Source: Eubacteriales bacterium (lineage in GTDB: Bacteria > Bacillota > Clostridia > Oscillospirales > Oscillospiraceae). Taken from it: a stretch of 64,000 nt of DNA. This document shows positions 11,165 through 56,927 of this stretch, one piece after another. The translations under genes and the position numbers were made by a program. Below the pieces are notes generated by a model. The model saw only the letters and a list, made by a program, of their open reading frames with translations. It ran no database searches and was not told where the DNA came from. Where the stretch lies: NCBI GenBank assembly GCA_030533415.1, contig JAUNJE010000009.1:9268-73267 (forward strand), given 5' to 3'. Numbering within the stretch: the first letter of the stretch is position 1; the number at the start of each line of letters is the position of its first letter.

Positions 11165-11231
11165 GAGGAAAAAGAAAAGACAGCCCATTGGGCTGCCTTC
11201 GCTGCATATAAAATTCCCGGTTTTACACGGA

Positions 11232-11374
11232 TATTCCGTTAAAAAGTTTCATTCGCCAGAATGGAACGTTTTAACAGGAAGATCATAATGAGACGGGTTA
11301 TCGTGATTTCCTATCTTAAAAATCACGATAACGACAACGCTGTCAGGCGGTGCCTTCTTTATAAAAAACAGTAT
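11232..11374 (+). repeat. Dispersed intergenic repeat family A, composite copy with internal hairpin element
   Basis: Core (~11270-11362) matches the reverse complement of ~56410-56510; flanks match 34601-34656; internal perfect 13-bp stem GTTATCGTGATTT/AAATCACGATAAC. Confidence 0.75.
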
Positions 11375-11773: not shown

Positions 11774-12793
11774 TCATGCTTTTGACTGGGCTGTTTTCTT
11801 TGGATGGTTTTCATAATACCAGTTCAGGAATTCCCCGAAAATCCGTTCCTCTGCTTCTTTTCTCGCCTTCGCGGCGTCCTCGATTTTGGAATAGGTCCCC
11901 AGATTGTACAGCTTTCCCTTGAAGGTGATCTGGGCCTTCCATTTTCCACGGTAGGCCATTACCCCCGTGTAGCCGCTGGTGTTGTCTTTTCTCAGGCCCT
12001 TCCGTTCCAGCATTTCCACACAGGTTCCGTCGATATAACGCATGTAACTTACGGGACTTTCGTGCTCCTTGGGCAGGCAGCCGCAGCTTTTGGTGTTCCC
12101 CTGCACAAGACTGTTGTAGGAGACCTCAGTCTCCCCTCCGCAGTCACACCGGCACTTCCAGACCACACTGCCGCCCATGCGCCCTTCGGTGGGCTCCAGC
12201 GCAACCAGCCGCCCAAAACGCTGCCCGGCGATATCCCCGGCCCGCTTTTTCAGCATTTCGCTTCGGATGCAGCCACAGCTTTTGGTGCCGCCCTGCAGCA
12301 ATGCGTTGGCGGATACCTCCGTCAATTGCCCGCAGTCACAGCGGCACAGCCAGGCGTAGCTGGACCCCAGCTTTTTGTCCAGCCGCCGCAGGGCGGTGAG
12401 CCTGCCGAAGCGCTGGTTGGTCAGGTCCTTGATTTTATGCTCCGAGCGCAGGCAGCCGCAGCTTTCGATGACGCCGTTGGATATTTTGTAGCCCTCGGTC
12501 AGAAACTCCCGCCCGCAGTCACAGCGGCATTTCCAGAGGACCACGCCCCGGCGTTTTTCCTCCGTGGGCGCCAGGGCCACCACCTTCCCGGAACGCAGTC
12601 CGGTGATGTCCTTTTTCCGGCCTTCGCCCCGGGCGCAGCCGCAGGAGGTGAAAAACTTTGTCAGCAGCAAAGTATCCGCCAGGGTGACCGTATTGCCGCA
12701 GTCGCAGCGGCACAGGAGCCTGCCATCCTCCGTCTGTTCCAGCACCGTCAGCCTGCCAAAGCGCTGCCCCGTCAGGCTGGATGTTACCGTCAT
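11774..12793 (-). CDS. Cys-rich repeat plus C-terminal AP2-domain putative DNA-binding protein, copy 1
   Basis: Four ~62-aa repeats (DxxGQRFGRL..W.CRCDCG..SCGC) then NTSGYTGV..GKWKAQITFKGKLYNLGTY..EDAAKARKEAE; GGAGG RBS. Confidence 0.85.
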   Translation of the reverse strand: MTVTSSLTGQRFGRLTVLEQTEDGRLLCRCDCGNTVTLADTLLLTKFFTSCGCARGEGRKKDITGLRSGKVVALAPTEEKRRGVVLWKCRCDCGREFLTEGYKISNGVIESCGCLRSEHKIKDLTNQRFGRLTALRRLDKKLGSSYAWLCRCDCGQLTEVSANALLQGGTKSCGCIRSEMLKKRAGDIAGQRFGRLVALEPTEGRMGGSVVWKCRCDCGGETEVSYNSLVQGNTKSCGCLPKEHESPVSYMRYIDGTCVEMLERKGLRKDNTSGYTGVMAYRGKWKAQITFKGKLYNLGTYSKIEDAAKARKEAEERIFGEFLNWYYENHPKKTAQSKA

Positions 12794-13853
12794 GATTTCC
12801 CTCCTTCCGGCTATGGAAAGGGCGGCAGGGGATGGCTCCCGCTGCCGCCTTTTTTAGGGGTTACTTACTGCTTATCTGGTTTTCTTTTTCTTCACGGTGA
12901 GGATCAGCACCACGCCCAGAACCACCGCGCAGGCAACCAGCACGCCGATCCACAGGCCGATGTTGCTGGTGTCTCCGGTTTCGGGAATCAGGGAGATCTT
13001 GTTGGAGACGGTCACTTTCACGGTATCACTGGGCGTACCGGGAACGGGATCACCGCCAGCCTCGGTGATGACTACAGTATTCTTGATCACCGTTCCATTC
13101 TTCACACCGGACTTGACCGTGGCCTTGATGGTCAGTTTGGCGGTTTTGCCATTTTTCAGCTCGGAAATCGTCCACAGGCCGTCCTTGACCGCATAATTTC
13201 CATCGCCGCTGGCGCTGACAAAGGTCAGATTTGCATCCAGCTTTTCGGAAACGACGATATCTTCCAGGTCCTCGCCAGTCCTGTTGGTGACCTTGATGGT
13301 GTAAGTGATGGTCTTACCGGGACGCACTGTCGTGCGGTTGGCCGACTTATCGATGGTCAGTTTGCCGTAGTCCGGCGTCGGGTCAGGAGTAACAGACTCA
13401 TCAGGTTTGAATGACCAAACGCCCTCCAGAAGCATATCCTGCTGGATGTTCTTCAGTTCGGTGACCTTAGTGCCATTGTATGTCCAGCCCTCGAAGGTGA
13501 AGGTACCATCCTTACCATTATATTTACCCTTCCGGCTCTCGGGAACACCTTCCACGGTGTAGTCGCCACCCGCCGGGACAGTTGTGCCATCAGGTGCAGT
13601 ATATCCATCGGGAATCGTACCTGTAACTTGATAGGTCACATTGTATTTTTTCGCTGCAACGGTGTATTCTACAGTGGGCTTTTCGAAAGACTCGGGAACA
13701 CCATCACTTCCGTTAGAATCCTTAGGATACAGTATCGCACTTGTATTCGTATACAAGCCTTCATACCGCTTGGCTCCATCGGCATCATACTTGCCATATG
13801 TGCCTGCTTCGGTCTTGGGATTCATCAGCTTCACGGTGTAGGTCAACTGAACC
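11811..13853. repeat. Outer inverted repeat, left arm (~2043 bp; partner 21258-23300)
   Basis: Reverse complement of 21258-23300; covers the surface-protein 3' end, intergenic hairpin and AP2 gene; scattered mismatches mainly at the distal end. Confidence 0.95.
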
Positions 13854-16800
13854 GGGGCAAAGTTGGTAATCGGCTCATTGATGTACCATACGAAGTGCTC
13901 TTCTCCCTTACCGTTGCCCTTTACATAGGTTACGGTGTAGGCATAGCCTTCGCTCACCTTCTTGAAACCATACTCATTTTCACCAAGTTTGACTGCCTTG
14001 TAAGTTGCGTCGCCTATCTTCAATTCCATACTGTCGGCGTCATTTACAAAGTCAAAGTCATAATCACCCTCAACGTAGCCAATGAAATCCTCTACACGGG
14101 AACCTTTGTCTACCAAATAGAGAATGTCATTTTTGATGGTTTCAAAGCTGTACGTACTGCCACCAGCCAGGAACTCCATAAAGGAGGGACCCCATTCGTA
14201 TTGACCACCGCTGCCCGTATCAGCCTTGACAGCGTAGCAGTGATAGCCTTCCTGTGCGATAGACTGATAAGCCAAATAGGTTAAGTAAAGGGCTTTGTCG
14301 ATGGAGTTTGCATAATCGGACTGCTTTTCCACAGGCGTTGCATTGGTGACTGTGCCGCCATAAGGATACTCATACAGTGTTCCCTGGGCCGCAACCTGCT
14401 TGCTGACCGCAACCAGATAATCTTTCCAGCTCTCAGGCGCATCGTTGCTCTTATATTTGGAATTCCAGTTATCAGGACCTGCCCAATTCAGAACTGTATC
14501 TGCCTTAAAAGTCCAAGCGGTTACAGTTGGCACCGCATTGTACATATAAGTAATACCGTCACTGACAAAGATCAGATACTTGCGGCTGGCGGACACGGAT
14601 GTGTCAGCATCCAGCATAGCCTTGCCCGCAAGCAGTCCAGCGTGGGTATTCGTACCACTGGAAATCTCCTGCTTAATTGCTGCTTCGATAGCACTGTATT
14701 GCGTTGCAAGATCCATAAAGTTTGTGACATGCGCTTCGTTATTGAAAATCACAACGCCTACGTTGACTTTAGCGCTGGTATTTTGGATTTGCGTTTGCAG
14801 GTCCTTAAGCATCTGGAGTGCCTGGTTTTCCAAAGCCGCACTGGTGGATTTATCCAGCACAAACACGACATCGGAAACCAATTGCTGCTCTGCGGAAGGC
14901 AGAGACAGAGTTACCTTGGACTCAAAATTCTCATCCAGATTGGTAGCGGTCTTGGATTTGGAAACCTTCCAATCGGGGGTAACAACCGGCAGGTCAGGAA
15001 CGTCAACATTCAAGGCATGGGCAGCCTTCAAAGCCAATTTCCCGGTGAATGCTTTGCCGTAATCAGTATACTCCACGGTATAGGGTTTACCGCTATGGGC
15101 ATCCCAACGGAAGATGATTGGAATTCCGTCCTTATCTGTGGCATATCCGTCATAGTACCAACCGTCAATGGCATCGGTGCAATCGGGAGCGCCATCTAAG
15201 GCCCAATTAGAGCCAACTTTGCCGAAGGTGATAGTACCGACGTTGTAGATGTCGTCGCCAGCCTTATCGGCATGGTTATTATACAGAGAAATACTCTCGG
15301 AAAGCACCGCCTCCCCTTTGTTGTAAATGCCACCGCCGTAACTGTCGGTGCTATTATTCATAACTACGACATTTGCACCGGGGTCGACCTGTAACTTATA
15401 CGCGTTATAAATTCCGCCATCTTTATTCCGAAGGATTTCAACATTGGCGCCTTTTTCGATGGTCACATCGCCATACCAGTAGTTGCTGCCGGAATAAACC
15501 CATAGACCGCTTTTGGCATTATCATTCAGTTTGACGGCCGCGCCTGCCGCAATGGTACCCTTTCCGCCAACAGTGATTCCATTTCCCGTGTTTCCGCATG
15601 CTTCGACTTTAGAAGTGCCGTCAACTTCAAGCTCTTTGACAAAGATTCCCCAAGAAGATCCCTTGTTATTATTTGCAATCACTGCGGAACCATTGGTAAC
15701 GGTCAACTTGCCATAGTAGCATCCAAGGCCTCCACCATATGTCGCGGCACCGTTCCCAGTTAGACTCAGCGTCGAACTACCAGTAACGGTGAGATTAATC
15801 GGGTTAATGGTCATTCCATGCCAGCCGCAATTACTAATATTTACAGCCGAACTGCCACTAATTACAATCTCGCGATTAGGTTTACCGTCGTACTCCGAGT
15901 TGTCTGCGTAAATGCCACTGGCTTGCGCTCCATTGAATCCAGTGATATTCACAACAGAGCCACCGGTAATGTACAGATTACTTTCTTGGTAGAGATAAAT
16001 TCCACTTATCGCTTTATTGCTTGCCAAGTTCAGAACAGCATTATTCAGCGTCAAATTGGAGTTACTAATCAGATTGGCTGTACCTCCACTCGCCCCTGGG
16101 TTGTTTTCGACTTGCTGCATATCGAGTTCGCAGTTCTGGAATGTAAGCTTGCTTTTCGACGCATAGATACCCAACGCACCAAATGTGATCTTGTTTTTCC
16201 CACCATCAATGGTAATGGCCTTATCTTTGACAGTAAGTCCATTTACGTCACAGTCGGCCAGCAGTTCAATTGTATCACCATCTGATGCATTCTTTATGGC
16301 TTCGTCCAAGGTTTCGTATTCTGTTTCACCAATTTTGGCAACATATGTTGTTTCCAACGTCTGCAAGCCGCCAGTTAAGAAATCCATAGCCTTCTTCATT
16401 GTAGCTATTGCGGCTTGTACGTCCTCCCGGGCAAGTTCCTCTTCACTCAGCGCACCATACGCTTCTTGTGCCGCGCCAATTTGTTCGTTCAGTACGGGAC
16501 CGGTTTCCTCGTTGATTTCTTCCGGAAGCACAATAGCTGCAACGGCGTCTAAAAATGCCTTAACTGTGTCAGAAACTTCTTCCGGTTCACTTGCTTCTGT
16601 GTCCTTCTCAGCAACATATTTAGGACAGTCCTCTGTATGGGTTTCAGCTTCGCAATCGTCGTCCCCTGTGCATTCCTTCACAGTGACAAGTTTAGGGCAC
16701 CCCTCAACATGGGTCTCAGCTTCACAATTGTTGTCCTTGGTGCATTCCTTCACAGTGACAAGTTTAGGGCATCCCTCAACATGGGCTTCAGCTTCGCAAT

Positions 16801-16993
16801 TGTCATCCTTTATGCATCCCTCGGCAGCAACATATTTCGGACAGTCTGTAAAATGTGTGTCAGCCTCGCAATCAGCATTCTTTGTACACGTCAAGTTGTC
16901 CTCCGCCGATGCGGTTACCGGGCAAACGGAGAGCATCAGGACAGCCGCCAGCACCAGGGCCAAAAAGCGTTTTCCTTTCGTGTTCTTTCGCAT
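12872..16993 (-). CDS. Sortase-anchored vWA/beta-helix-like/DUF11-like surface protein, variant A
   Basis: Signal peptide MRKNTKGKRFLALVLAAVLMLSVCPVTASA; 24-aa Cys/His repeats; GG.IY repeat region; vWA MIDAS-like DVVFVLDKSTS...LIFVSDG; LTIDKSANRTTVRPGKTITYTIKVTN; IPETG + TM + KKKKTR. Alternative starts 17005/17017. Confidence 0.88.
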   Translation of the reverse strand: MRKNTKGKRFLALVLAAVLMLSVCPVTASAEDNLTCTKNADCEADTHFTDCPKYVAAEGCIKDDNCEAEAHVEGCPKLVTVKECTKDNNCEAETHVEGCPKLVTVKECTGDDDCEAETHTEDCPKYVAEKDTEASEPEEVSDTVKAFLDAVAAIVLPEEINEETGPVLNEQIGAAQEAYGALSEEELAREDVQAAIATMKKAMDFLTGGLQTLETTYVAKIGETEYETLDEAIKNASDGDTIELLADCDVNGLTVKDKAITIDGGKNKITFGALGIYASKSKLTFQNCELDMQQVENNPGASGGTANLISNSNLTLNNAVLNLASNKAISGIYLYQESNLYITGGSVVNITGFNGAQASGIYADNSEYDGKPNREIVISGSSAVNISNCGWHGMTINPINLTVTGSSTLSLTGNGAATYGGGLGCYYGKLTVTNGSAVIANNNKGSSWGIFVKELEVDGTSKVEACGNTGNGITVGGKGTIAAGAAVKLNDNAKSGLWVYSGSNYWYGDVTIEKGANVEILRNKDGGIYNAYKLQVDPGANVVVMNNSTDSYGGGIYNKGEAVLSESISLYNNHADKAGDDIYNVGTITFGKVGSNWALDGAPDCTDAIDGWYYDGYATDKDGIPIIFRWDAHSGKPYTVEYTDYGKAFTGKLALKAAHALNVDVPDLPVVTPDWKVSKSKTATNLDENFESKVTLSLPSAEQQLVSDVVFVLDKSTSAALENQALQMLKDLQTQIQNTSAKVNVGVVIFNNEAHVTNFMDLATQYSAIEAAIKQEISSGTNTHAGLLAGKAMLDADTSVSASRKYLIFVSDGITYMYNAVPTVTAWTFKADTVLNWAGPDNWNSKYKSNDAPESWKDYLVAVSKQVAAQGTLYEYPYGGTVTNATPVEKQSDYANSIDKALYLTYLAYQSIAQEGYHCYAVKADTGSGGQYEWGPSFMEFLAGGSTYSFETIKNDILYLVDKGSRVEDFIGYVEGDYDFDFVNDADSMELKIGDATYKAVKLGENEYGFKKVSEGYAYTVTYVKGNGKGEEHFVWYINEPITNFAPVQLTYTVKLMNPKTEAGTYGKYDADGAKRYEGLYTNTSAILYPKDSNGSDGVPESFEKPTVEYTVAAKKYNVTYQVTGTIPDGYTAPDGTTVPAGGDYTVEGVPESRKGKYNGKDGTFTFEGWTYNGTKVTELKNIQQDMLLEGVWSFKPDESVTPDPTPDYGKLTIDKSANRTTVRPGKTITYTIKVTNRTGEDLEDIVVSEKLDANLTFVSASGDGNYAVKDGLWTISELKNGKTAKLTIKATVKSGVKNGTVIKNTVVITEAGGDPVPGTPSDTVKVTVSNKISLIPETGDTSNIGLWIGVLVACAVVLGVVLILTVKKKKTR
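15156..15262. repeat. Internal 107-bp homology block, left (partner 19825-19931)
   Basis: Encodes AGDDIYNVGTITFGKVGSNWALDGAPDCTDAIDGWY in both paralogs; 2 synonymous mismatches by eye, flanked by divergent DNA. Confidence 0.9.
16613..16890 (-). repeat. Intragenic 72-bp tandem repeats (four Cys/His-rich 24-aa units)
   Basis: CTKNADCEADTHFTDCPKYV / CIKDDNCEAEAHVEGCPKLV / CTKDNNCEAETHVEGCPKLV / CTGDDDCEAETHTEDCPKYV. Confidence 0.85.
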
Positions 16994-17119
16994 CTTGTTT
17001 TCCATCCTTCCTTTCAATTCGTTCCATAGATAAATTTTCGGAGCAAATTTTCAGTCGGATAGGATATATTCCGCCATCCCATTCGTGACTTTGCCACATA
17101 ATTCATATTATGTAGTAAA
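16899..17119. repeat. Inner inverted repeat, left arm (221 bp; partner 17683-17903)
   Basis: Reverse complement of 17683-17903 with 2 mismatches; covers 5' leader, RBS and signal-peptide codons. Confidence 0.95.
17091..17118 (-). other. dif-like 28-bp candidate recombination site, left
   Basis: Minus strand TTACTACATAA-TATGAA-TTATGTGGCAA (11-6-11 dyad) at the inner edge of the repeat. Confidence 0.6.
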
Positions 17120-17224
17120 AATGAAAATTCGAACTCCATTTTAGAGCCAGTAAGAACGGCATAACCTGCCTTCTGCTGCTGTCTGTAGACAAGACGTTAC
17201 ATAGCCAGCCCTAAGTTTGGTTTC

Positions 17225-17253
17225 ATTATAGTACTAAAAAATTTTTTTGTCAA
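17225..17253 (-). promoter_or_regulatory. Sigma-A promoter directed at surface protein variant A
   Basis: Minus strand TTGACA (17253-17248), 17 bp, TATAAT (17230-17225), perfect consensus; no equivalent seen facing variant B. Confidence 0.85.
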
Positions 17254-17384
17254 TGGAAAACAGGGGATTTGGGCATGAAAAAATAAGCCTTTCCAGCCGC
17301 CAATTTTGGAAAGGCTTTGCCGTTATGTCATTTTTTGCCGAATTCTTGCCAATTTTCCCCAGGGGGATGGATCGCAGCGCACCA

Positions 17385-17666
17385 AAGCCTCCCTTGTGCA
17401 AAGGGAGGTGGCACGGCGTGAGCCGTGACGGAGGGATTGTGCGGTAACATCTCACGGTTTTGCCTAGCTTCCGGCAAATTCGCACTCCCTGCCGCAACAA
17501 TCCCTCAGTCAAAAATCAGAGATTTTTGACAGCTCCCTTTGCACAAGGGAGCCTTGGGCGCTCCCGCGCCAGTGATTCGCGGGAAAATTGGCTCAGAAAA
17601 TGATTGGATGCTTATCGATTTTGCTTGGCAAGCCTGATTTACAGCGCACAAGGGAGCCCTTGGCGC
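17385..17666. repeat. REP/REPIN-like palindromic cluster inside the spacer
   Basis: CCTCCCTTGTGCAAAGGGAGG and GCTCCCTTTGCACAAGGGAGC hairpins in inverted arrangement; GAGGGATTGT/ACAATCCCTC; GTCAAAAATC-AGA-GATTTTTGAC; partial third copy ~17646-17666. Confidence 0.7.
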
Positions 17667-17682
17667 GTCCAGGCTAGAACGG

Positions 17683-17903
17683 TTTACCACATAATATGAA
17701 TTATGTGGCAAAGTCACGAATGGGATGGCGGAATATATCCTGTCCGACTGAAAATTTGCTCCGAAAATTTATCTATGGAACGAATTGAAAGGAAGGATGG
17801 AAAACAAGATGCGAAAGAACACGAAAGGAAAACGCTTTTTGGCCCTGGTGCTGGCGGCTGTCCTGATGCTCTCCGTTTGCCCGGTAACCGCATCGGCGGA
17901 GGA
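17683..17903. repeat. Inner inverted repeat, right arm
   Basis: Reverse complement of 16899-17119. Confidence 0.95.
17684..17711 (+). other. dif-like 28-bp candidate recombination site, right
   Basis: TTACCACATAA-TATGAA-TTATGTGGCAA; inverted relative to 17091-17118 with one difference in the spacer-facing arm. Confidence 0.6.
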
Positions 17904-20900
17904 TACCGACTGTCAGCATAAGAATGTAAATCCACTTGAAGCAGTTGAGCCCACTTGCACTGAGGATGGATTAACTGCGGGAAAACAATGCCTTGATTGC
18001 AATGCTGTAACCGAAGCGCAGCAGACGATTCCGGCCACTGGCCACAGCTATGACAAAGGGAAAGTGACCCAAGAGCCAACTGCGGAAGAAGCAGGTGTAA
18101 AAACCTATACATGCAGTGTGTGTGGTGAAACATATACGGAGGGGATTCCTGCTACGGGCCCGGATCACCACTGGGATGAGGGAAAAGTGACTACCCAGGT
18201 GACGTGCACGGCAGAAGGTGTAATGACATACACCTGCACTGACGAAGGCTGCGAAGAAACCAAAACGGAGACGATTCCAGCCACTGGCCACAGCTGGGAC
18301 GAGGGGAAAGTGACCCAAGAGCCAACTGCGGAAAAAGCAGGTGTAAAAACCTATACATGCAGTGTATGTGGTGAAACATATACGGAGGAGATTCCTGCTA
18401 CGGGCACGGATCACCACTGGGATGAGGGAAAAGTAACTACCCCGGCGACGTGCACGGCAGAAGGTGTAATGACATACACCTGCACTGACGAGGGCTGCGA
18501 AGAAACCAAAACGGACACGATTCCAGCCACTGGACACAGCTATGGCGAGCCAACGTGGGATCGGGACGAAAAGGAGGAAAATTTCATTGCAACCTTTGTT
18601 TGCGCTACATGTGGGGCTTCGGAGACGGTGACTGCCACAATTGACGAAGATGGCAAAGCGGTTGTGACCTTTGGCGATGAAACATATTCTTATGAGTTTG
18701 AGGCCGCTCCTGTCGTTGATGCAGAACAGTTTGTTGCCCAAATTGGTAGCGAAAAATATGAGACTTTAGGTGAAGCTTTTCAGAAGGCCTGCACGATATC
18801 TCAAGAAACTAACACTACGGTGACAGTGGAGGTCTTGACAGACTGCGAGGAAAAGGCTAACAACATCCAAATAAAGAATGGTGGAAATGTAATTGTTAAA
18901 GCTGCCGACGGTGCTAACGTTACGGTCACTCTTACGGGAACAGGAGCATACCAAGCGACAACAGTAACAAACAGCTCGCTCACATTCCAGAATCTAACTA
19001 TCATTGATACATCCCTGATCGCACTGTATGAAAATGCTATCTTAACCTTTGATAATGTCAATTTGTCCATGGATGGCACAAATGTTCAGGTCGTCAGTAA
19101 TGGATATTATTCTTGCGCGATTGCACTTGAGAATCCGAAAACTACTTTGGTCTTCAAAAATTCTAAAGTTCACATTGAGAATTATCCCGGAACAGGCAGC
19201 GGCATCAGATGGGATTCTGAGCTGGATGGATACTCTATTAAATTTCTAAACGGTACGAACTTTACGGTCACAAAATGCTATTCCGGATTCACCGGTACAA
19301 ACAATATTACCATTGAGGATAGTACTGTTAATGTATATGAAAACAGAGGAAATGGGTCTAATGGCTCCAATTTTGAAATAAAAAACTCCACTGTAAATTT
19401 CAATAACAATGGTTCTCATGGCCTCTCTGCTGGTAAATTGCTTATTGATAATTCGACTGTTACTGCGAATGGCAATGGCGGAAATGGTATCCATACAAAT
19501 AGTACATTGACAATTCAAAACAAATCGACGGTCACTGTTGCGGAAAATAAATGTTCTATCAGCAGCAAATGGACCATTCCCGGAGCTGTCCATATCGGAG
19601 CAGGTGATTCTGTAATTAAAGATAGTACCGTCATGATTCAGAATAACAGTGGCTCAGGTATTTATCAGAAGTCTGCTAGTGGTTCCCTGACGATTGAGGA
19701 CAGCGCTAATGTAACCATTGTGAAAAACACCGCTGAAAAACTGGGCCTTGGCGGCGGTATTTATGTCAACGGTACTGTAACACTTGCCAACAATGTTGTT
19801 CTCTATAACAACCATGCGGGTACTGCTGGCGACGACATCTACAACGTCGGTACTATCACCTTTGGCAAAGTTGGCTCTAATTGGGCCTTAGATGGCGCTC
19901 CCGATTGCACCGATGCCATTGACGGCTGGTATGTCGATGCTGAAAATAACCGCTGGGTAGCCCATAAAACTCCCGTCCATGTAGAGGAGTTTACCAGCGG
20001 CACGGTTACATCTTCTTCTGAAAATCCCCTGGCGCTGAAGGCTGCCCACAAGCTGATACCGCTTCAGCCTGGTGATTCCTCCCACAGTTGGGAGCACTCC
20101 AAGTCCAAAACGGCGACCGAACTGGACGAGAATTATGCGTCCAAGGTAACTCTGTCTCTCCCCAGCGGTCAAACGCCGGTGGAATATGACGTGATGTTTG
20201 TGTTGGATAAGTCCAAGAGTACTGAAAAAGAGCAGATTGCCGATGAAGTAGAGAAGCTTTTGGACAAGATTCAAGGTTCCAAGGCCAAGGTGAATATCGG
20301 TGTCGTTACCTTCAACAACAATGCAAATACCTACCTGCCTTTGACGGAGCTAACCGCCAGCAGTCTGCCTAAAATTACAGAAGCAATCAATACCACTATC
20401 AGTTCCGGCACGAATATCCATGCCGGTTTGCAGAAGGGCATTGAGCTGCTTGAGGCTGGAAGTGCAGAGGAAAAATATCTTATCCTTGTCACTGACGGCA
20501 TCACCTATCTCTATAACGATGATGCGGGCAACGGCCCCTTGGGCATCAGCTATGAAGGCACAGCCGAGTCGCTGCATTATTCCTATAAATATGGCACCGG
20601 CAAAGCGCCGACAGAGTGGGAAAACCCGATGGATTGGGGCACATATTTAGGCGTCATCGATGGGCTGGTTAAGGAAGATGGAACCCGATTCGAGGGATCA
20701 TGGAATTCCACTGGCGCTACTGTAAACTCAGCGGAAAGACTGAAAAGCCCGTCTTACTCAGACGGTAACAGCATTGCGGATCATGCTATGTCTGCCGATA
20801 AAGCCCTGTTACTGACCTATCAGGAATATGAAAAGGCAATTCAGAAATTCGGCAAAGACCACGTCTATGCAGTTACGAAAGAGTTCACAACTGCCGAATT

Positions 20901-22239
20901 CCTGTGGGGAAACAGCTTCGTGGACTATCTGTCCAGCATTTCTGCGAATGAGCAGGACATTGGAACCATTATCAATCGTGACATCTACTATTTGCTCGAC
21001 GCCGGTTCCAGCGTTAAGGACTACATTGGCTTTGTTGAGAATGATTACAACTTCGACTTTGTAAACGATGTCAGCGCCCTTTCGCTGAAGGTGGGCGAGG
21101 TAACCTACGAGGCAGAAGAAATCGAAACCAATAAATATGGCTTTGTTCCGAATGAGAAGGGCGGCTACGATTACGTTGTTACTTACAACGAGGGCAACCT
21201 TGAGGACACAGAGCATTTTGTCTGGGAAATCAATGTTCCTGTCACCATTGATAAAGTGGTTCAGCTGACCTACACCGTGAAGCTGATGAATCCCAAGACC
21301 GAAGCAGGCACATATGGCAAGTATGATGCCGATGGAGCCAAGCGGTATGAAGGCTTGTATACGAATACAAGTGCGATACTGTATCCTAAGGATTCTAACG
21401 GAAGTGATGGTGTTCCCGAGTCTTTCGAAAAGCCCACTGTAGAATACACCGTTGCAGCGAAAAAATACAATGTGACCTATCAAGTTACAGGTACGATTCC
21501 CGATGGATATACTGCACCTGATGGCACAACTGTCCCGGCGGGTGGCGACTACACCGTGGAAGGTGTTCCCGAGAGCCGGAAGGGTAAATATAATGGTAAG
21601 GATGGTACCTTCACCTTCGAGGGCTGGACATACAATGGCACTAAGGTCACCGAACTGAAGAACATCCAGCAGGATATGCTTCTGGAGGGCGTTTGGTCAT
21701 TCAAACCTGATGAGTCTGTTACTCCTGACCCGACGCCGGACTACGGCAAACTGACCATCGATAAGTCGGCCAACCGCACGACAGTGCGTCCCGGTAAGAC
21801 CATCACTTACACCATCAAGGTCACCAACAGGACTGGCGAGGACCTGGAAGATATCGTCGTTTCCGAAAAGCTGGATGCAAATCTGACCTTTGTCAGCGCC
21901 AGCGGCGATGGAAATTATGCGGTCAAGGACGGCCTGTGGACGATTTCCGAGCTGAAAAATGGCAAAACCGCCAAACTGACCATCAAGGCCACGGTCAAGT
22001 CCGGTGTGAAGAATGGAACGGTGATCAAGAATACTGTAGTCATCACCGAGGCTGGCGGTGATCCCGTTCCCGGTACGCCCAGTGATACCGTGAAAGTGAC
22101 CGTCTCCAACAAGATCTCCCTGATTCCCGAAACCGGAGACACCAGCAACATCGGCCTGTGGATCGGCGTGCTGGTTGCCTGCGCGGTGGTTCTGGGCGTG
22201 GTGCTGATCCTCACCGTGAAGAAAAAGAAAACCAGATAA
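17809..22239 (+). CDS. Sortase-anchored vWA/beta-helix-like/DUF11-like surface protein, variant B
   Basis: Same signal peptide and same last ~325 aa as variant A; different Cys/His repeats (H.WDEGKVT..TCT.EG..TYTC); vWA DVMFVLDKSKS...LILVTDG; IPETG anchor. Alternative starts 17797/17785. Confidence 0.88.
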   Translation: MRKNTKGKRFLALVLAAVLMLSVCPVTASAEDTDCQHKNVNPLEAVEPTCTEDGLTAGKQCLDCNAVTEAQQTIPATGHSYDKGKVTQEPTAEEAGVKTYTCSVCGETYTEGIPATGPDHHWDEGKVTTQVTCTAEGVMTYTCTDEGCEETKTETIPATGHSWDEGKVTQEPTAEKAGVKTYTCSVCGETYTEEIPATGTDHHWDEGKVTTPATCTAEGVMTYTCTDEGCEETKTDTIPATGHSYGEPTWDRDEKEENFIATFVCATCGASETVTATIDEDGKAVVTFGDETYSYEFEAAPVVDAEQFVAQIGSEKYETLGEAFQKACTISQETNTTVTVEVLTDCEEKANNIQIKNGGNVIVKAADGANVTVTLTGTGAYQATTVTNSSLTFQNLTIIDTSLIALYENAILTFDNVNLSMDGTNVQVVSNGYYSCAIALENPKTTLVFKNSKVHIENYPGTGSGIRWDSELDGYSIKFLNGTNFTVTKCYSGFTGTNNITIEDSTVNVYENRGNGSNGSNFEIKNSTVNFNNNGSHGLSAGKLLIDNSTVTANGNGGNGIHTNSTLTIQNKSTVTVAENKCSISSKWTIPGAVHIGAGDSVIKDSTVMIQNNSGSGIYQKSASGSLTIEDSANVTIVKNTAEKLGLGGGIYVNGTVTLANNVVLYNNHAGTAGDDIYNVGTITFGKVGSNWALDGAPDCTDAIDGWYVDAENNRWVAHKTPVHVEEFTSGTVTSSSENPLALKAAHKLIPLQPGDSSHSWEHSKSKTATELDENYASKVTLSLPSGQTPVEYDVMFVLDKSKSTEKEQIADEVEKLLDKIQGSKAKVNIGVVTFNNNANTYLPLTELTASSLPKITEAINTTISSGTNIHAGLQKGIELLEAGSAEEKYLILVTDGITYLYNDDAGNGPLGISYEGTAESLHYSYKYGTGKAPTEWENPMDWGTYLGVIDGLVKEDGTRFEGSWNSTGATVNSAERLKSPSYSDGNSIADHAMSADKALLLTYQEYEKAIQKFGKDHVYAVTKEFTTAEFLWGNSFVDYLSSISANEQDIGTIINRDIYYLLDAGSSVKDYIGFVENDYNFDFVNDVSALSLKVGEVTYEAEEIETNKYGFVPNEKGGYDYVVTYNEGNLEDTEHFVWEINVPVTIDKVVQLTYTVKLMNPKTEAGTYGKYDADGAKRYEGLYTNTSAILYPKDSNGSDGVPESFEKPTVEYTVAAKKYNVTYQVTGTIPDGYTAPDGTTVPAGGDYTVEGVPESRKGKYNGKDGTFTFEGWTYNGTKVTELKNIQQDMLLEGVWSFKPDESVTPDPTPDYGKLTIDKSANRTTVRPGKTITYTIKVTNRTGEDLEDIVVSEKLDANLTFVSASGDGNYAVKDGLWTISELKNGKTAKLTIKATVKSGVKNGTVIKNTVVITEAGGDPVPGTPSDTVKVTVSNKISLIPETGDTSNIGLWIGVLVACAVVLGVVLILTVKKKKTR
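18025..18545 (+). repeat. Intragenic tandem duplication with 246-bp (82-aa) period
   Basis: ACGATTCC(G/A)GCCACTGG(C/A)CACAGC recurs at 18025, 18271 and 18517 with near-identical intervening DNA. Confidence 0.85.
19825..19931. repeat. Internal 107-bp homology block, right
   Basis: Reverse complement of 15156-15262. Confidence 0.9.
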
Positions 22240-23300
22240 GCAGTAAGTAACCCCTAAAAAAGGCGGCAGCGGGAGCCATCCCCTGCCGCCCTTTCCATAG
22301 CCGGAAGGAGGGAAATCATGACGGTAACATCCAGCCTGACGGGGCAGCGCTTTGGCAGGCTGACGGTGCTGGAACAGACGGAGGATGGCAGGCTCCTGTG
22401 CCGCTGCGACTGCGGCAATACGGTCACCCTGGCGGATACTTTGCTGCTGACAAAGTTTTTCACCTCCTGCGGCTGCGCCCGGGGCGAAGGCCGGAAAAAG
22501 GACATCACCGGACTGCGTTCCGGGAAGGTGGTGGCCCTGGCGCCCACGGAGGAAAAACGCCGGGGCGTGGTCCTCTGGAAATGCCGCTGTGACTGCGGGC
22601 GGGAGTTTCTGACCGAGGGCTACAAAATATCCAACGGCGTCATCGAAAGCTGCGGCTGCCTGCGCTCGGAGCATAAAATCAAGGACCTGACCAACCAGCG
22701 CTTCGGCAGGCTCACCGCCCTGCGGCGGCTGGACAAAAAGCTGGGGTCCAGCTACGCCTGGCTGTGCCGCTGTGACTGCGGGCAATTGACGGAGGTATCC
22801 GCCAACGCATTGCTGCAGGGCGGCACCAAAAGCTGTGGCTGCATCCGGAGCGAAATGCTGAAAAAGCGGGCCGGAGACATCGCCGGGCAGCGTTTTGGGC
22901 GGCTGGTTGCGCTGGAGCCCACCGAAGGACGCATGGGCGGCAGTGTGGTCTGGAAGTGCCGGTGTGACTGCGGCGGGGAGACAGAGGTCTCCTACAACAG
23001 TCTGGTGCAGGGGAATACCAAAAGCTGCGGCTGTCTGCCCAAGGAGCACGAAAGTCCCGTAAGTTACATGCGTTATATCGACGGCACCTGTGTGGAAATG
23101 CTGGAACGGAAGGGCCTGAGAAAAGACAACACCAGCGGCTACACGGGGGTAATGGCCTACCGTGGAAAATGGAAGGCCCAGATCACCTTCAAGGGAAAGC
23201 TGTACAATCTGGGGACCTATTCCAAAATCGAGGACGCCGCAAAGGCGAGAAAAGAAGCAGAAGAACGGATTTTCGGAGAATTCCTGGACTGGTATTATGA
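21258..23300. repeat. Outer inverted repeat, right arm
   Basis: Reverse complement of 11811-13853. Confidence 0.95.
22256..22294. terminator. GC-rich hairpin between surface gene and AP2 gene (mirror copy at 12817-12855)
   Basis: AAAAAA-GGCGGCAG(C)GGGA...TCCCCTGCCGCC-CTTT; weak U-tail in the sense direction. Confidence 0.55.
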
Positions 23301-23391
23301 GCATTTTCCCCCAAAAGGGAAAACGGGACTCACCGTCAAAGCCAATGACGCCCAATATACAGGCCCGGCATGCAGAAAAACACGCGAATAA
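22318..23391 (+). CDS. Cys-rich repeat plus AP2-domain protein, copy 2
   Basis: Identical to copy 1 up to EERIFGEFL, then a different and longer C-terminal tail. Confidence 0.85.
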   Translation: MTVTSSLTGQRFGRLTVLEQTEDGRLLCRCDCGNTVTLADTLLLTKFFTSCGCARGEGRKKDITGLRSGKVVALAPTEEKRRGVVLWKCRCDCGREFLTEGYKISNGVIESCGCLRSEHKIKDLTNQRFGRLTALRRLDKKLGSSYAWLCRCDCGQLTEVSANALLQGGTKSCGCIRSEMLKKRAGDIAGQRFGRLVALEPTEGRMGGSVVWKCRCDCGGETEVSYNSLVQGNTKSCGCLPKEHESPVSYMRYIDGTCVEMLERKGLRKDNTSGYTGVMAYRGKWKAQITFKGKLYNLGTYSKIEDAAKARKEAEERIFGEFLDWYYEHFPPKGKTGLTVKANDAQYTGPACRKTRE

Positions 23392-34508: not shown

Positions 34509-34600
34509 TCAGGAAATGGTGTTCGTTGAATATCAGGATAAGGACGCTATGGGATAAAAAATGCCGCCCCTCAGGGGGCGGCATCCTTGCTGGCCACTGA

Positions 34601-34656
34601 TATTCCGTTAAAAAATTTTATTCGTCAGAATGGAACTTTTTATAAAGAAACAGTAT
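34601..34656 (+). repeat. Repeat family A, short (empty-site-like) copy
   Basis: TATTCCGTTAAAAAATTTTATTCGTCAGAATGGAACTTTTTATAAAGAAACAGTAT matches the two flanks of 11232-11374 joined together. Confidence 0.7.
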
Positions 34657-56384: not shown

Positions 56385-56510
56385 ATACTGTTTCTTTCTA
56401 AAAATGATTCATTTTTAGAAAGAAGGCACCGCCTGGCGGCGTTGCTGTTTTTGTGATTTTTAAGATAGAAAATCACGAAAACACGTCTCATAATGATCTT
56501 CCTATTAAAA
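56385..56510 (-). repeat. Repeat family A copy
   Basis: Reverse complement matches 11270-11374; includes palindrome TTTCTAAAAATGA.TCATTTTTAGAAA. Confidence 0.75.
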
Positions 56511-56927
56511 AGTATAACTTAGTATAACAGATGTTGCATGCAAATTCAATAGCAGGCAGGGGGAACCCTTTTACCGGATTTCCGGGGGAGAAGGTGCCGG
56601 ATTTGCCGCGGATGTCCACATCAAAAGAACGCCTTTCCGCGGCTGGGATACAAAATCGGCAGAATGAAGAAAAATAGGGCATTCTATTTTGCATTATTAT
56701 GAATATTATACAATTTTTGCTTATTTCTATCCCACAAAGCGCCACGTTTTTGCATTTTTGGACGTGAAAAAACTCGTAACAACCGCGATTTTAACAGAAT
56801 TTTGGGGGGTCGAAAAGCTTGGCTTGCAATTTTTAGCTTGCAAAATTGCAAATCAAAGTGTATAATCATCACATAATCCATATTTGGAAGCAATTCCAAG
56901 GGAAAAGAAGACGAGGAGGAACCTGTT

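What the first reader, a model, noticed from the sequence alone, without database searches (positions are those of the whole stretch)
15156..19931. 107-bp near-identical island in the middle of otherwise divergent paralogs: a domain-swap point
Seen: 15156-15262 and 19825-19931 are inverted copies with about 2 synonymous mismatches, while flanking codons diverge heavily. The block lies in frame in both genes, between the N-terminal repeat/beta-helix-like region and the vWA domain. Inference: nucleotide-level identity indicates recent gene conversion or crossover. Inversion at this block would yield in-frame chimeras (N-A with vWA-B, N-B with vWA-A), giving up to four surface variants in combination with the promoter flip.
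Basis: partly seen in the sequence, partly recalled or inferred. Interest (0 to 1): 0.7.

Follow-up and report, generated by a model that had tools for sequence, protein, structure and literature searches.

The report
Swap hinge in paired gut adhesins
Two back-to-back surface-protein genes of a likely gut bacterium share a nearly identical 107-base stretch at a spot where related genes show swapped front halves, so it likely serves as a recombination hinge that could give mixed versions of a predicted adhesin, although no mixed version of these two genes was found.

Summary
Observation confirmed: 105/107 identical, both differences synonymous, in frame in two inverted paralogs (A, B) encoding predicted sortase-anchored β-helix–vWA adhesins. 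Protein constraint alone fails: 31/34 identical codons versus 87/191 in the flanks; 558 distant homologue pairs average 0.46. The block is a family-wide cassette-exchange hinge. P0004, 99% identical to A's vWA side, carries a third β-helix cassette that ends in the block, and 7 of 9 lineages with swapped cassettes break at or just before it. However, relatives swap there in single-copy genes, the block has no recombinase site, and no A/B chimera was found (no data could show one). The likely main switch is a 620-bp promoter segment between 11-6-11 tyrosine-recombinase-type sites, with the recombinase on another contig. Relatives have recombinase–switch–gene (18 of 19 loci); this gene–switch–gene layout occurred in none of 157 related loci and crosses a 528-bp perfect repeat in a short-read-type assembly, so misjoining (~20%) is open. 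Works like pneumococcal spnIII nested inversions or L. acidophilus slpA/slpB; member of neither. The scan noted a similar converted-paralog case on other DNA.

The parts
15156..15262 (-). Block, copy in gene A (aa 586-621, AGDDIY...DGWY motif; predicted cap of the β-helix)
19825..19931 (+). Block, copy in gene B (aa 681-716)
12872..17017 (-). Gene A, 1381-aa ORF (recorded protein starts at the ATG at 17005): signal peptide, Cys-rich repeats, β-helix cassette, block, vWA, SHIRT-like, DUF11, IPETG anchor; faced by the promoter in the assembled state
17785..22239 (+). Gene B, 1484-aa ORF with the same layout; no consensus promoter faces it in the assembled state
15263..16342 (-). β-helix cassette of A (about aa 226-585); replaced by another cassette in P0004
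18730..19824 (+). β-helix cassette of B (about aa 316-680), about 30% identical to A's
14543..14872 (-). vWA domain of A (Pfam PF00092, aa 716-825; DxSxS motif seen in sequence)
20188..20505 (+). vWA domain of B (PF00092, aa 802-907; DxSxS motif seen in sequence)
16899..17119 (-). 5' tract, copy A (site, 5' UTR, signal peptide), 219/221 identical to 17683-17903
17683..17903 (+). 5' tract, copy B
17091..17118 (.). Left 11-6-11 tyrosine-recombinase-type site (spacer TTCATA)
17684..17711 (.). Right 11-6-11 site, inverted, same spacer
17225..17253 (-). Perfect sigma-70 consensus promoter (TTGACA-17-TATAAT) inside the predicted invertible segment, pointing at gene A
17379..17561 (.). Multi-copy palindromic repeat element inside the segment
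11811..13853 (-). 3' tract, copy A (C-terminus plus downstream gene), 2028/2043 identical to 21258-23300; no mismatch over 12264-13845
21258..23300 (+). 3' tract, copy B
11774..12793 (-). Cys-repeat gene downstream of A ('AP2-like' is a recalled label; Pfam and NCBIfam gave only weak hits); homologues lie beside related vWA genes
22318..23391 (+). Copy of the Cys-repeat gene downstream of B

Best explanation
The 107-bp block encodes one of the best-conserved motifs of this adhesin family (the predicted cap of the β-helix), and it likely acts as a homologous-recombination hinge where β-helix cassettes are exchanged, which likely explains why genes A and B share it almost base for base. Steps: (1) Shown: the identity is at the DNA level and in frame. 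(2) Shown in homologues: cassettes are swapped with breakpoints at this motif, including in a near-identical allele of A and in single-copy loci. (3) Inferred: A and B came to share the block through allele exchange or gene conversion ending at the motif; getting from N-A/vWA-A to N-B/vWA-B with one block implies chimeric intermediates at some time. (4) Inferred from anatomy: the everyday switch is the promoter segment, flipped at its two 11-6-11 sites by the tyrosine recombinase on contig C67 acting in trans, so that A or B is expressed. (5) Predicted, untested: because the copies are inverted 4.5 kb apart, homology-driven crossovers at the block would give in-frame chimeras (1389 and 1476 aa), but as a rare, recombinase-independent side route.
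For: Codon identity 31/34 vs 87/191, p=3.7e-7; 558 distant pairs average 0.46 in the block vs 0.38 and 0.41 in flanks. Mean pairwise identity of the block window is 0.66, second highest of 23 windows. P0004 is near-identical to A over aa ~28-232, 34-38% in the cassette, 92% in the block, 95-99% in linker and vWA. Of 46 vWA-side lineages among 185 proteins, 9 carry two or more N cassettes; in 7 the breakpoint lies from 10 residues before to 34 after the GDDI glycine, and the other two have pairs both inside and outside. Distance correlation is 0.64 within the N cassette, 0.82 within the vWA side and -0.16 across them; 26 of 33 supported N-tree splits conflict with the vWA tree. Five related records show all four N/V combinations. 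No site-like sequence in the block (best other match in the locus has 8 or more mismatches of 22), and no unusual folding (z=0.18). Switch: promoter 12/12; site pattern in 45 of 301 congeners; recombinase next to the site in 18 of 19 such loci; C67 protein hits tyrosine-recombinase models. Precedent: an 85-bp inverted repeat in pneumococcal hsdS switches at about 1.5%, independent of CreX and RecA (PMC6620402, passages).
Against: No A/B chimera was seen, and the searches could not have shown one. P0004 is known only as a protein, so its breakpoint and its being conspecific are inferred from 99% identity. Breakpoints tend to be placed at conserved motifs anyway, other hinges exist (about aa 430, 660-710, 980, 1057), and the homologues were picked by similarity to A or B, which biases the cross-cassette correlation downward. 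The gene-switch-gene layout occurred in none of 157 related loci and depends on an assembly join.
Confidence: 0.55

Rival explanations
1. Programmed nested inversion: the block is kept identical because inversion at it is frequent and selected, so clonal populations hold all four variants (N-A/V-A, N-B/V-B, N-A/V-B, N-B/V-A), as at the pneumococcal spnIII locus.
For: Three nested inverted tracts of 221, 107 and 2043 bp around a promoter; in-frame products; the block sits exactly between two variable cassettes; an 85-bp repeat suffices for about 1.5% switching in spnIII (PMC6620402, passages).
Against: No recombinase site in the block. It carries 2 mismatches while 1582 bp of the C-terminal tract carry none; its divergence resembles strain-level differences seen in run X1 (4/252 and 9/438). 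The same motif is the swap point in single-copy loci, so no local switch is needed to explain it. The contig runs through the block, which suggests chimeras were not near half of the source population (inference from assembler behaviour, recalled).
Confidence: 0.2
2. Assembly misjoin: A and B belong to two separate canonical modules (recombinase, switch, gene), joined wrongly across the identical core of their promoter segments. The block would still be a swap hinge or a relic of module duplication, but no local inversion could occur.
For: Canonical layout in 18 of 19 congeneric site loci and in the recombinase-bearing vWA loci. The complementary piece exists: C67 holds a 98.7% copy of the segment with recombinase flank at both ends, and C5 starts inside a second recombinase copy. 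The two segments are identical over 17107-17634. 42 contig ends overlap by 55 bases, as in a short-read graph assembly.
Against: As assembled, spacers match within each pair (TTCATA twice, TTCACA twice); the alternative join gives mismatched spacers in both modules, whereas all 14 pairs found in 18 canonical loci match (the search favoured matching pairs). The same assembly also passes a 1582-bp and a 1119-bp perfect inverted repeat inside contigs, which hints at long-range information. A real recombination between two modules gives the same reciprocal pieces.
Confidence: 0.2
3. Pure constraint or chance: the motif is so constrained that both genes kept the same sequence without recombination.
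For: The motif is strongly conserved at the protein level (mean identity 0.64-0.66).
Against: None of 299 motif-bearing homologues reaches 95% protein identity to the block, while A and B are 100%. Identical-codon fraction is 0.91 for A/B against a 99th percentile of 0.69 in distant pairs; the maximum, 0.87, is a pair of related, themselves mosaic records.
Confidence: 0.03

Closest known systems
Streptococcus pneumoniae spnIII (cod/ivr) hsdS inversion locus (PMC6620402, passages read)
   Same: Oppositely oriented gene copies with nested inverted repeats, one of about 100 bp between two variable domains; tyrosine recombinase for the short site, with the 85-bp repeat switching independently of it.
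   Different: Target here is a predicted sortase-anchored adhesin, not a type I R-M specificity subunit; both genes are full length; the recombinase site brackets a promoter and is absent from the mid-gene repeat; no switching has been measured.
Lactobacillus acidophilus slpA/slpB inversion (review PMC3666127, passages read)
   Same: Two surface-protein genes, one active and one silent, exchanged by inversion of a chromosomal segment.
   Different: Here a short promoter segment with 11-6-11 sites lies between divergent genes, and a mid-gene hinge adds possible chimeras; the proteins are not S-layer proteins.
Clostridial invertons, group 139 with tyrosine invertase group 35 (Jin et al., PMC11892184, passages read; supplement unreadable)
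   Same: Segments of about 250-310 bp in Clostridia, nearly always beside a tyrosine recombinase, shown to flip in culture; relatives of this switch are 200-380 bp with the recombinase adjacent.
   Different: Here the segment is 620 bp (it holds a repeat element), sits between two genes and has its recombinase on another contig. Motif identity with group 139 could not be checked.
Campylobacter fetus sap nested inversions (titles seen in the reference list of PMC1950947; papers not held; details recalled)
   Same: Invertible promoter between oppositely oriented surface-protein homologues; recombination in shared tracts.
   Different: Recalled as homology-driven inversion in 5' conserved regions among many copies; here two copies, site-specific-type sites and a mid-gene tract.
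vWA tip adhesins SpaC, PitA, RrgA, GBS104, Mfa5 (Foldseek)
   Same: vWA domain with DxSxS motif flanked by β-rich domains; sortase anchor in A and B.
   Different: Only partial structural matches (TM about 0.2 over the whole model); a β-helix precedes the vWA (AlgG also matches); no pilin genes seen among the neighbours scanned.

Membership tests
spnIII/cod-type invertible hsdS locus | Type I R-M hsdS genes with target-recognition domains | tested here: not met
   Pfam and NCBIfam give vWA, DUF11 and LPXTG, no HsdS
spnIII/cod-type invertible hsdS locus | Nested inverted repeats, one between two variable domains, in frame | tested here: met
spnIII/cod-type invertible hsdS locus | Both orientations at the mid-gene repeat coexist in a clone | not testable with these tools
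   Only one run, as contigs, not covering the block
Shufflon (site-specific, recombinase site at each junction) | Recombinase site within each swap junction | tested here: not met
   Only the two promoter-flanking positions match the site; all others have 8 or more mismatches of 22. A site of a different recombinase was not tested.
Tyrosine-recombinase invertible promoter (clostridial inverton) | Two inverted 11-6-11 sites with matching spacer | tested here: met
   17091-17118 and 17684-17711
Tyrosine-recombinase invertible promoter (clostridial inverton) | Promoter inside the segment facing a flanking gene | tested here: met
   12/12 consensus match at 17253-17225; activity not shown
Tyrosine-recombinase invertible promoter (clostridial inverton) | Cognate recombinase adjacent | tested here: not met
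   Absent beside the window segment; present on C67 beside a 98.7% copy of the segment
Tyrosine-recombinase invertible promoter (clostridial inverton) | Reads in both orientations | not testable with these tools
   No raw reads available
Inverton group 139 of Jin et al. 2025 | Inverted-repeat motif and invertase cluster match | not testable with these tools
   Supplement too large to read
L. acidophilus slpA/slpB system | S-layer protein genes | tested here: not met
   Sortase-anchored vWA proteins
Sortase-anchored vWA adhesin | Signal peptide, vWA with DxSxS, LPXTG-like anchor | tested here: met
   (TIGR01167 above cut-off); ligand binding not tested

The most novel reading that the evidence does not exclude
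Two ordinary clostridial ON/OFF modules recombined into one either/or switch (gene-promoter-gene, with the recombinases left on a twin promoterless-of-target segment elsewhere), and the family's inter-strain swap hinge was thereby captured as an in-genome inversion point: a two-level, four-variant adhesin shuffler in a gut commensal.
Probability: 0.22. Interest if true: 0.72.

Novelty: new variant of a known kind. Interest (0 to 1): 0.48.

Why it matters
It ties three things together in an uncultured-type gut Clostridia lineage: a widespread recombinase-promoter module in front of vWA surface genes, a family-wide hinge where β-helix cassettes are exchanged between strains, and one genome where two alleles face each other across the switch. 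If the local inversion is real, it shows how a combinatorial antigen or adhesin shuffler can arise from simple parts, and it is directly testable with four junction PCRs. If not, the block still marks a recombination hotspot that explains the mosaic diversity of a large, undescribed adhesin family. Searches returned no paper on this family or motif; passages of PMC9881135, PMC11892184 and PMC11602134 had no 'vWA' hit. Supplements of PMC11892184 could not be read and may list such loci.

Tried and rejected
Exact 40-mer of the block in metagenome contigs: 0 matches. Sequencing runs: one DNA run (X1, contigs, share 0.06), no RNA holder listed; it covers pieces of B and A's N-terminus but not the block or the sites, so it is no evidence on chimeras or orientation. 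Whole-locus DNA search of 60 relatives: only the repeat element, the C-terminal region and the Cys-repeat gene matched. Protein searches of 400 congeners (3 hits) and 400 family members (15 hits): no paired locus; the two genomes with two hits were one split gene and two unlinked genes. C38 'dif-like' pair: overlaps a promoter and operator of a regulator gene, not followed. A recombinase site or hairpin in the block: rejected. L166/L167 versus L066 'swap': dropped, N region missing from the extracted ORF. P0085: dropped from the breakpoint count as truncated. One search's pair counts (374) are not independent and were replaced by the lineage count. C. fetus primary papers were not held. No complex prediction was run, as no binding claim is made.
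Full report
Observation. The two stretches are inverted copies, 105 of 107 bases identical, with synonymous differences in a Phe and a Gly codon. The block is in frame in gene A (12872-17017, minus, aa 586-621) and gene B (17785-22239, plus, aa 681-716). All 36 residues are identical; 31 of 34 degenerate codons are identical against 87 of 191 in the flanking cassettes (p=3.7e-7). The longest other exact match in the variable regions is 21 nt, and the genome holds no third copy.

The genes. Both encode a signal peptide, Cys-rich repeats, a β-rich region, a vWA domain with DxSxS, a SHIRT-like region, DUF11 and an IPETG anchor. An AlphaFold model of A aa 224-1056 (67 sequences, pLDDT 86.6, pTM 0.61) shows a run of short strands consistent with a β-helix up to and including the block, then the vWA fold. 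Foldseek's best hits are vWA tip adhesins (SpaC E=8.6e-7, Mfa5, PilB, PitA) and the β-helix protein AlgG. Of 116 shorter homologues with the motif, 4 have a vWA start motif (some are contig-cut), so the block goes with the β-helix as its cap and is not the border of the vWA domain. The names of records holding homologues point to gut Clostridia; the host taxon of the window is inferred from that only.

The locus. Three inverted tracts are nested: 221 bp (5' UTR and signal peptide, 2 mismatches), the block, and 2043 bp (C-terminus and a downstream Cys-repeat gene, 15 mismatches, none over 1582 bp). Between the genes is a 620-bp segment with a perfect sigma-70 consensus promoter facing A, bounded by two inverted 11-6-11 sites with the same spacer. 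A 98.7% copy of the segment lies at the start of contig C67 next to a 298-aa protein that hits tyrosine-recombinase models. The site pattern occurs in 45 of 301 congeneric genomes, the reversed control in one listed row; 18 of 19 such loci examined have the recombinase adjacent. Many related vWA genes sit behind the same module. This resembles clostridial inverton group 139 (PMC11892184, passages); membership could not be tested.

Is the block constraint or recombination? The motif is conserved: mean pairwise identity 0.66, second highest of 23 windows. But among 558 distant pairs (from 37 loci plus A and B, not independent) identical codons average 0.46 in the block and 0.38-0.41 in the flanks, with a 99th percentile of 0.69; A/B is 0.91. 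None of 299 motif-bearing homologues reaches 95% protein identity to the block. Constraint supplies the homology but does not explain the identity.

Is it a swap point? Yes at the population level. P0004, from another contig, is near-identical to A in the N-terminal repeats, 34-38% in the β-helix cassette, and 95-99% from within the block through the vWA side; its cassette is 84% like that of P0005. Among 185 proteins in 46 vWA-side lineages, 9 lineages carry two or more cassettes; in 7 the breakpoint lies between 10 residues before and 34 after the GDDI glycine (several just before the 107-bp stretch, at YNNHA), and in two there are pairs inside and outside. Distances correlate within the cassette (0.64) and within the vWA side (0.82) but not across (-0.16); 26 of 33 supported splits conflict between the trees (65 sequences, picked by similarity to A or B, which biases this). 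The uncoupling zone runs from about aa 590 to 710, so a second anchor follows the block. Five related records show all four combinations of two N and two distal-vWA types.

What is not shown. No N-A/vWA-B or N-B/vWA-A molecule was found, and none could be: no homologue is 90% identical to N-A, N-B or vWA-B, the exact-match scan was empty, and run X1 misses the block. The swaps in relatives occur in single-copy loci: none of 157 related loci has an inverted paralog pair (flanks up to 10 kb, many contigs short), and three congeners hold one gene with no sites nearby. The block lacks the recombinase site and special folding. Its 1.9% divergence is like strain-level differences in X1 and higher than the C-terminal tract's.

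Assembly caveat. The window's gene-switch-gene layout and C67's recombinase-switch-recombinase-flank layout are reciprocal products of two canonical modules; C5 begins inside a second recombinase copy. The two segments are identical over 528 bp, 42 contig ends overlap by 55 bases, and C67 begins at a 55-base repeat of its own recombinase flank. This is either a real rearrangement or a misjoin. For real: spacers match within each assembled pair and would mismatch in the alternative, while 14 of 14 pairs found in 18 canonical loci match (search biased to matches); and the assembly passes two longer perfect inverted repeats. I put misjoining at about 20%.

Mechanism and comparison. Most likely the block is a homologous-recombination hinge, homogenised by allele exchange or conversion (inferred), the promoter flip is the routine A-or-B switch (inferred from anatomy), and block crossovers would give rare in-frame chimeras of 1389 and 1476 aa (lengths; untested). 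The pneumococcal spnIII locus shows that an 85-bp inverted repeat can switch at about 1.5% without its recombinase or RecA (PMC6620402, passages), so the four-variant reading is plausible. L. acidophilus slpA/slpB is the closest two-gene surface switch (PMC3666127, passages). The locus works like these but is a member of neither. Papers seen: passages of PMC6620402, PMC11892184, PMC9881135, PMC11602134, PMC3666127, PMC4534519 and PMC1950947; listing and abstract start only for PMC2784873 (cwpV); C. fetus details are recalled.

Verdict. Real feature, swap-point reading supported in the family, local shuffling unproven. New variant of a known kind; interest 0.48.

Noticed in passing
G000:C67:1-1593 (L029) and G000:C5:1-144 (L030): Second copy of the promoter segment (spacer TTCACA) beside the tyrosine recombinase, with recombinase flank at both ends; C5 starts inside a second recombinase copy. 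In the assembled state the promoter points antisense into the recombinase.
   Followed up: yes
window 11774-12793 and 22318-23391; G000:C47:96297-97310: Cys-repeat gene in three copies (98.6% and 94%); homologues lie beside related vWA genes and switches in other Clostridia, upstream or downstream. Function unclear.
   Followed up: partly
gene A about aa 226-240 and aa 1057 (window about 16340 and 13850): Two more swap boundaries: P0004 leaves A at the VAKIG..YETL motif and differs again after VQLTYTVKL, where the A/B 3' tract begins.
   Followed up: partly
window 16602-16872 and 18023-18514: Different Cys-rich tandem repeats at the N-termini: 72-nt units in A, 246-nt units in B.
   Followed up: no
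G000:C14:8965-13092: A third large surface protein shares only the DUF11 and anchor region (57% aa) with A and B.
   Followed up: no
G000:C73:89275-90399 and 131486-132610: Two near-identical inverted copies of an element with split ORFs resembling an IS630-type transposase (label recalled), both inside one contig.
   Followed up: partly
L049, L058, L068, L082, L084, L086, L109: Related genes with two vWA modules in tandem on the same strand.
   Followed up: no
P0129-P0218: About 80 clusters of near-equal-length SLH-anchored relatives, each under 90% identical to the others; hotspots of their variation were not mapped.
   Followed up: no
window 11226-11367, 34595-34649, 56412-56513: A second dispersed intergenic repeat family.
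   Followed up: no
L215 (G145:C95:29960-30022): Two copies of the 11-6-11 site in direct orientation 41 bp apart behind the recombinase, possibly a deletion scar.
   Followed up: no
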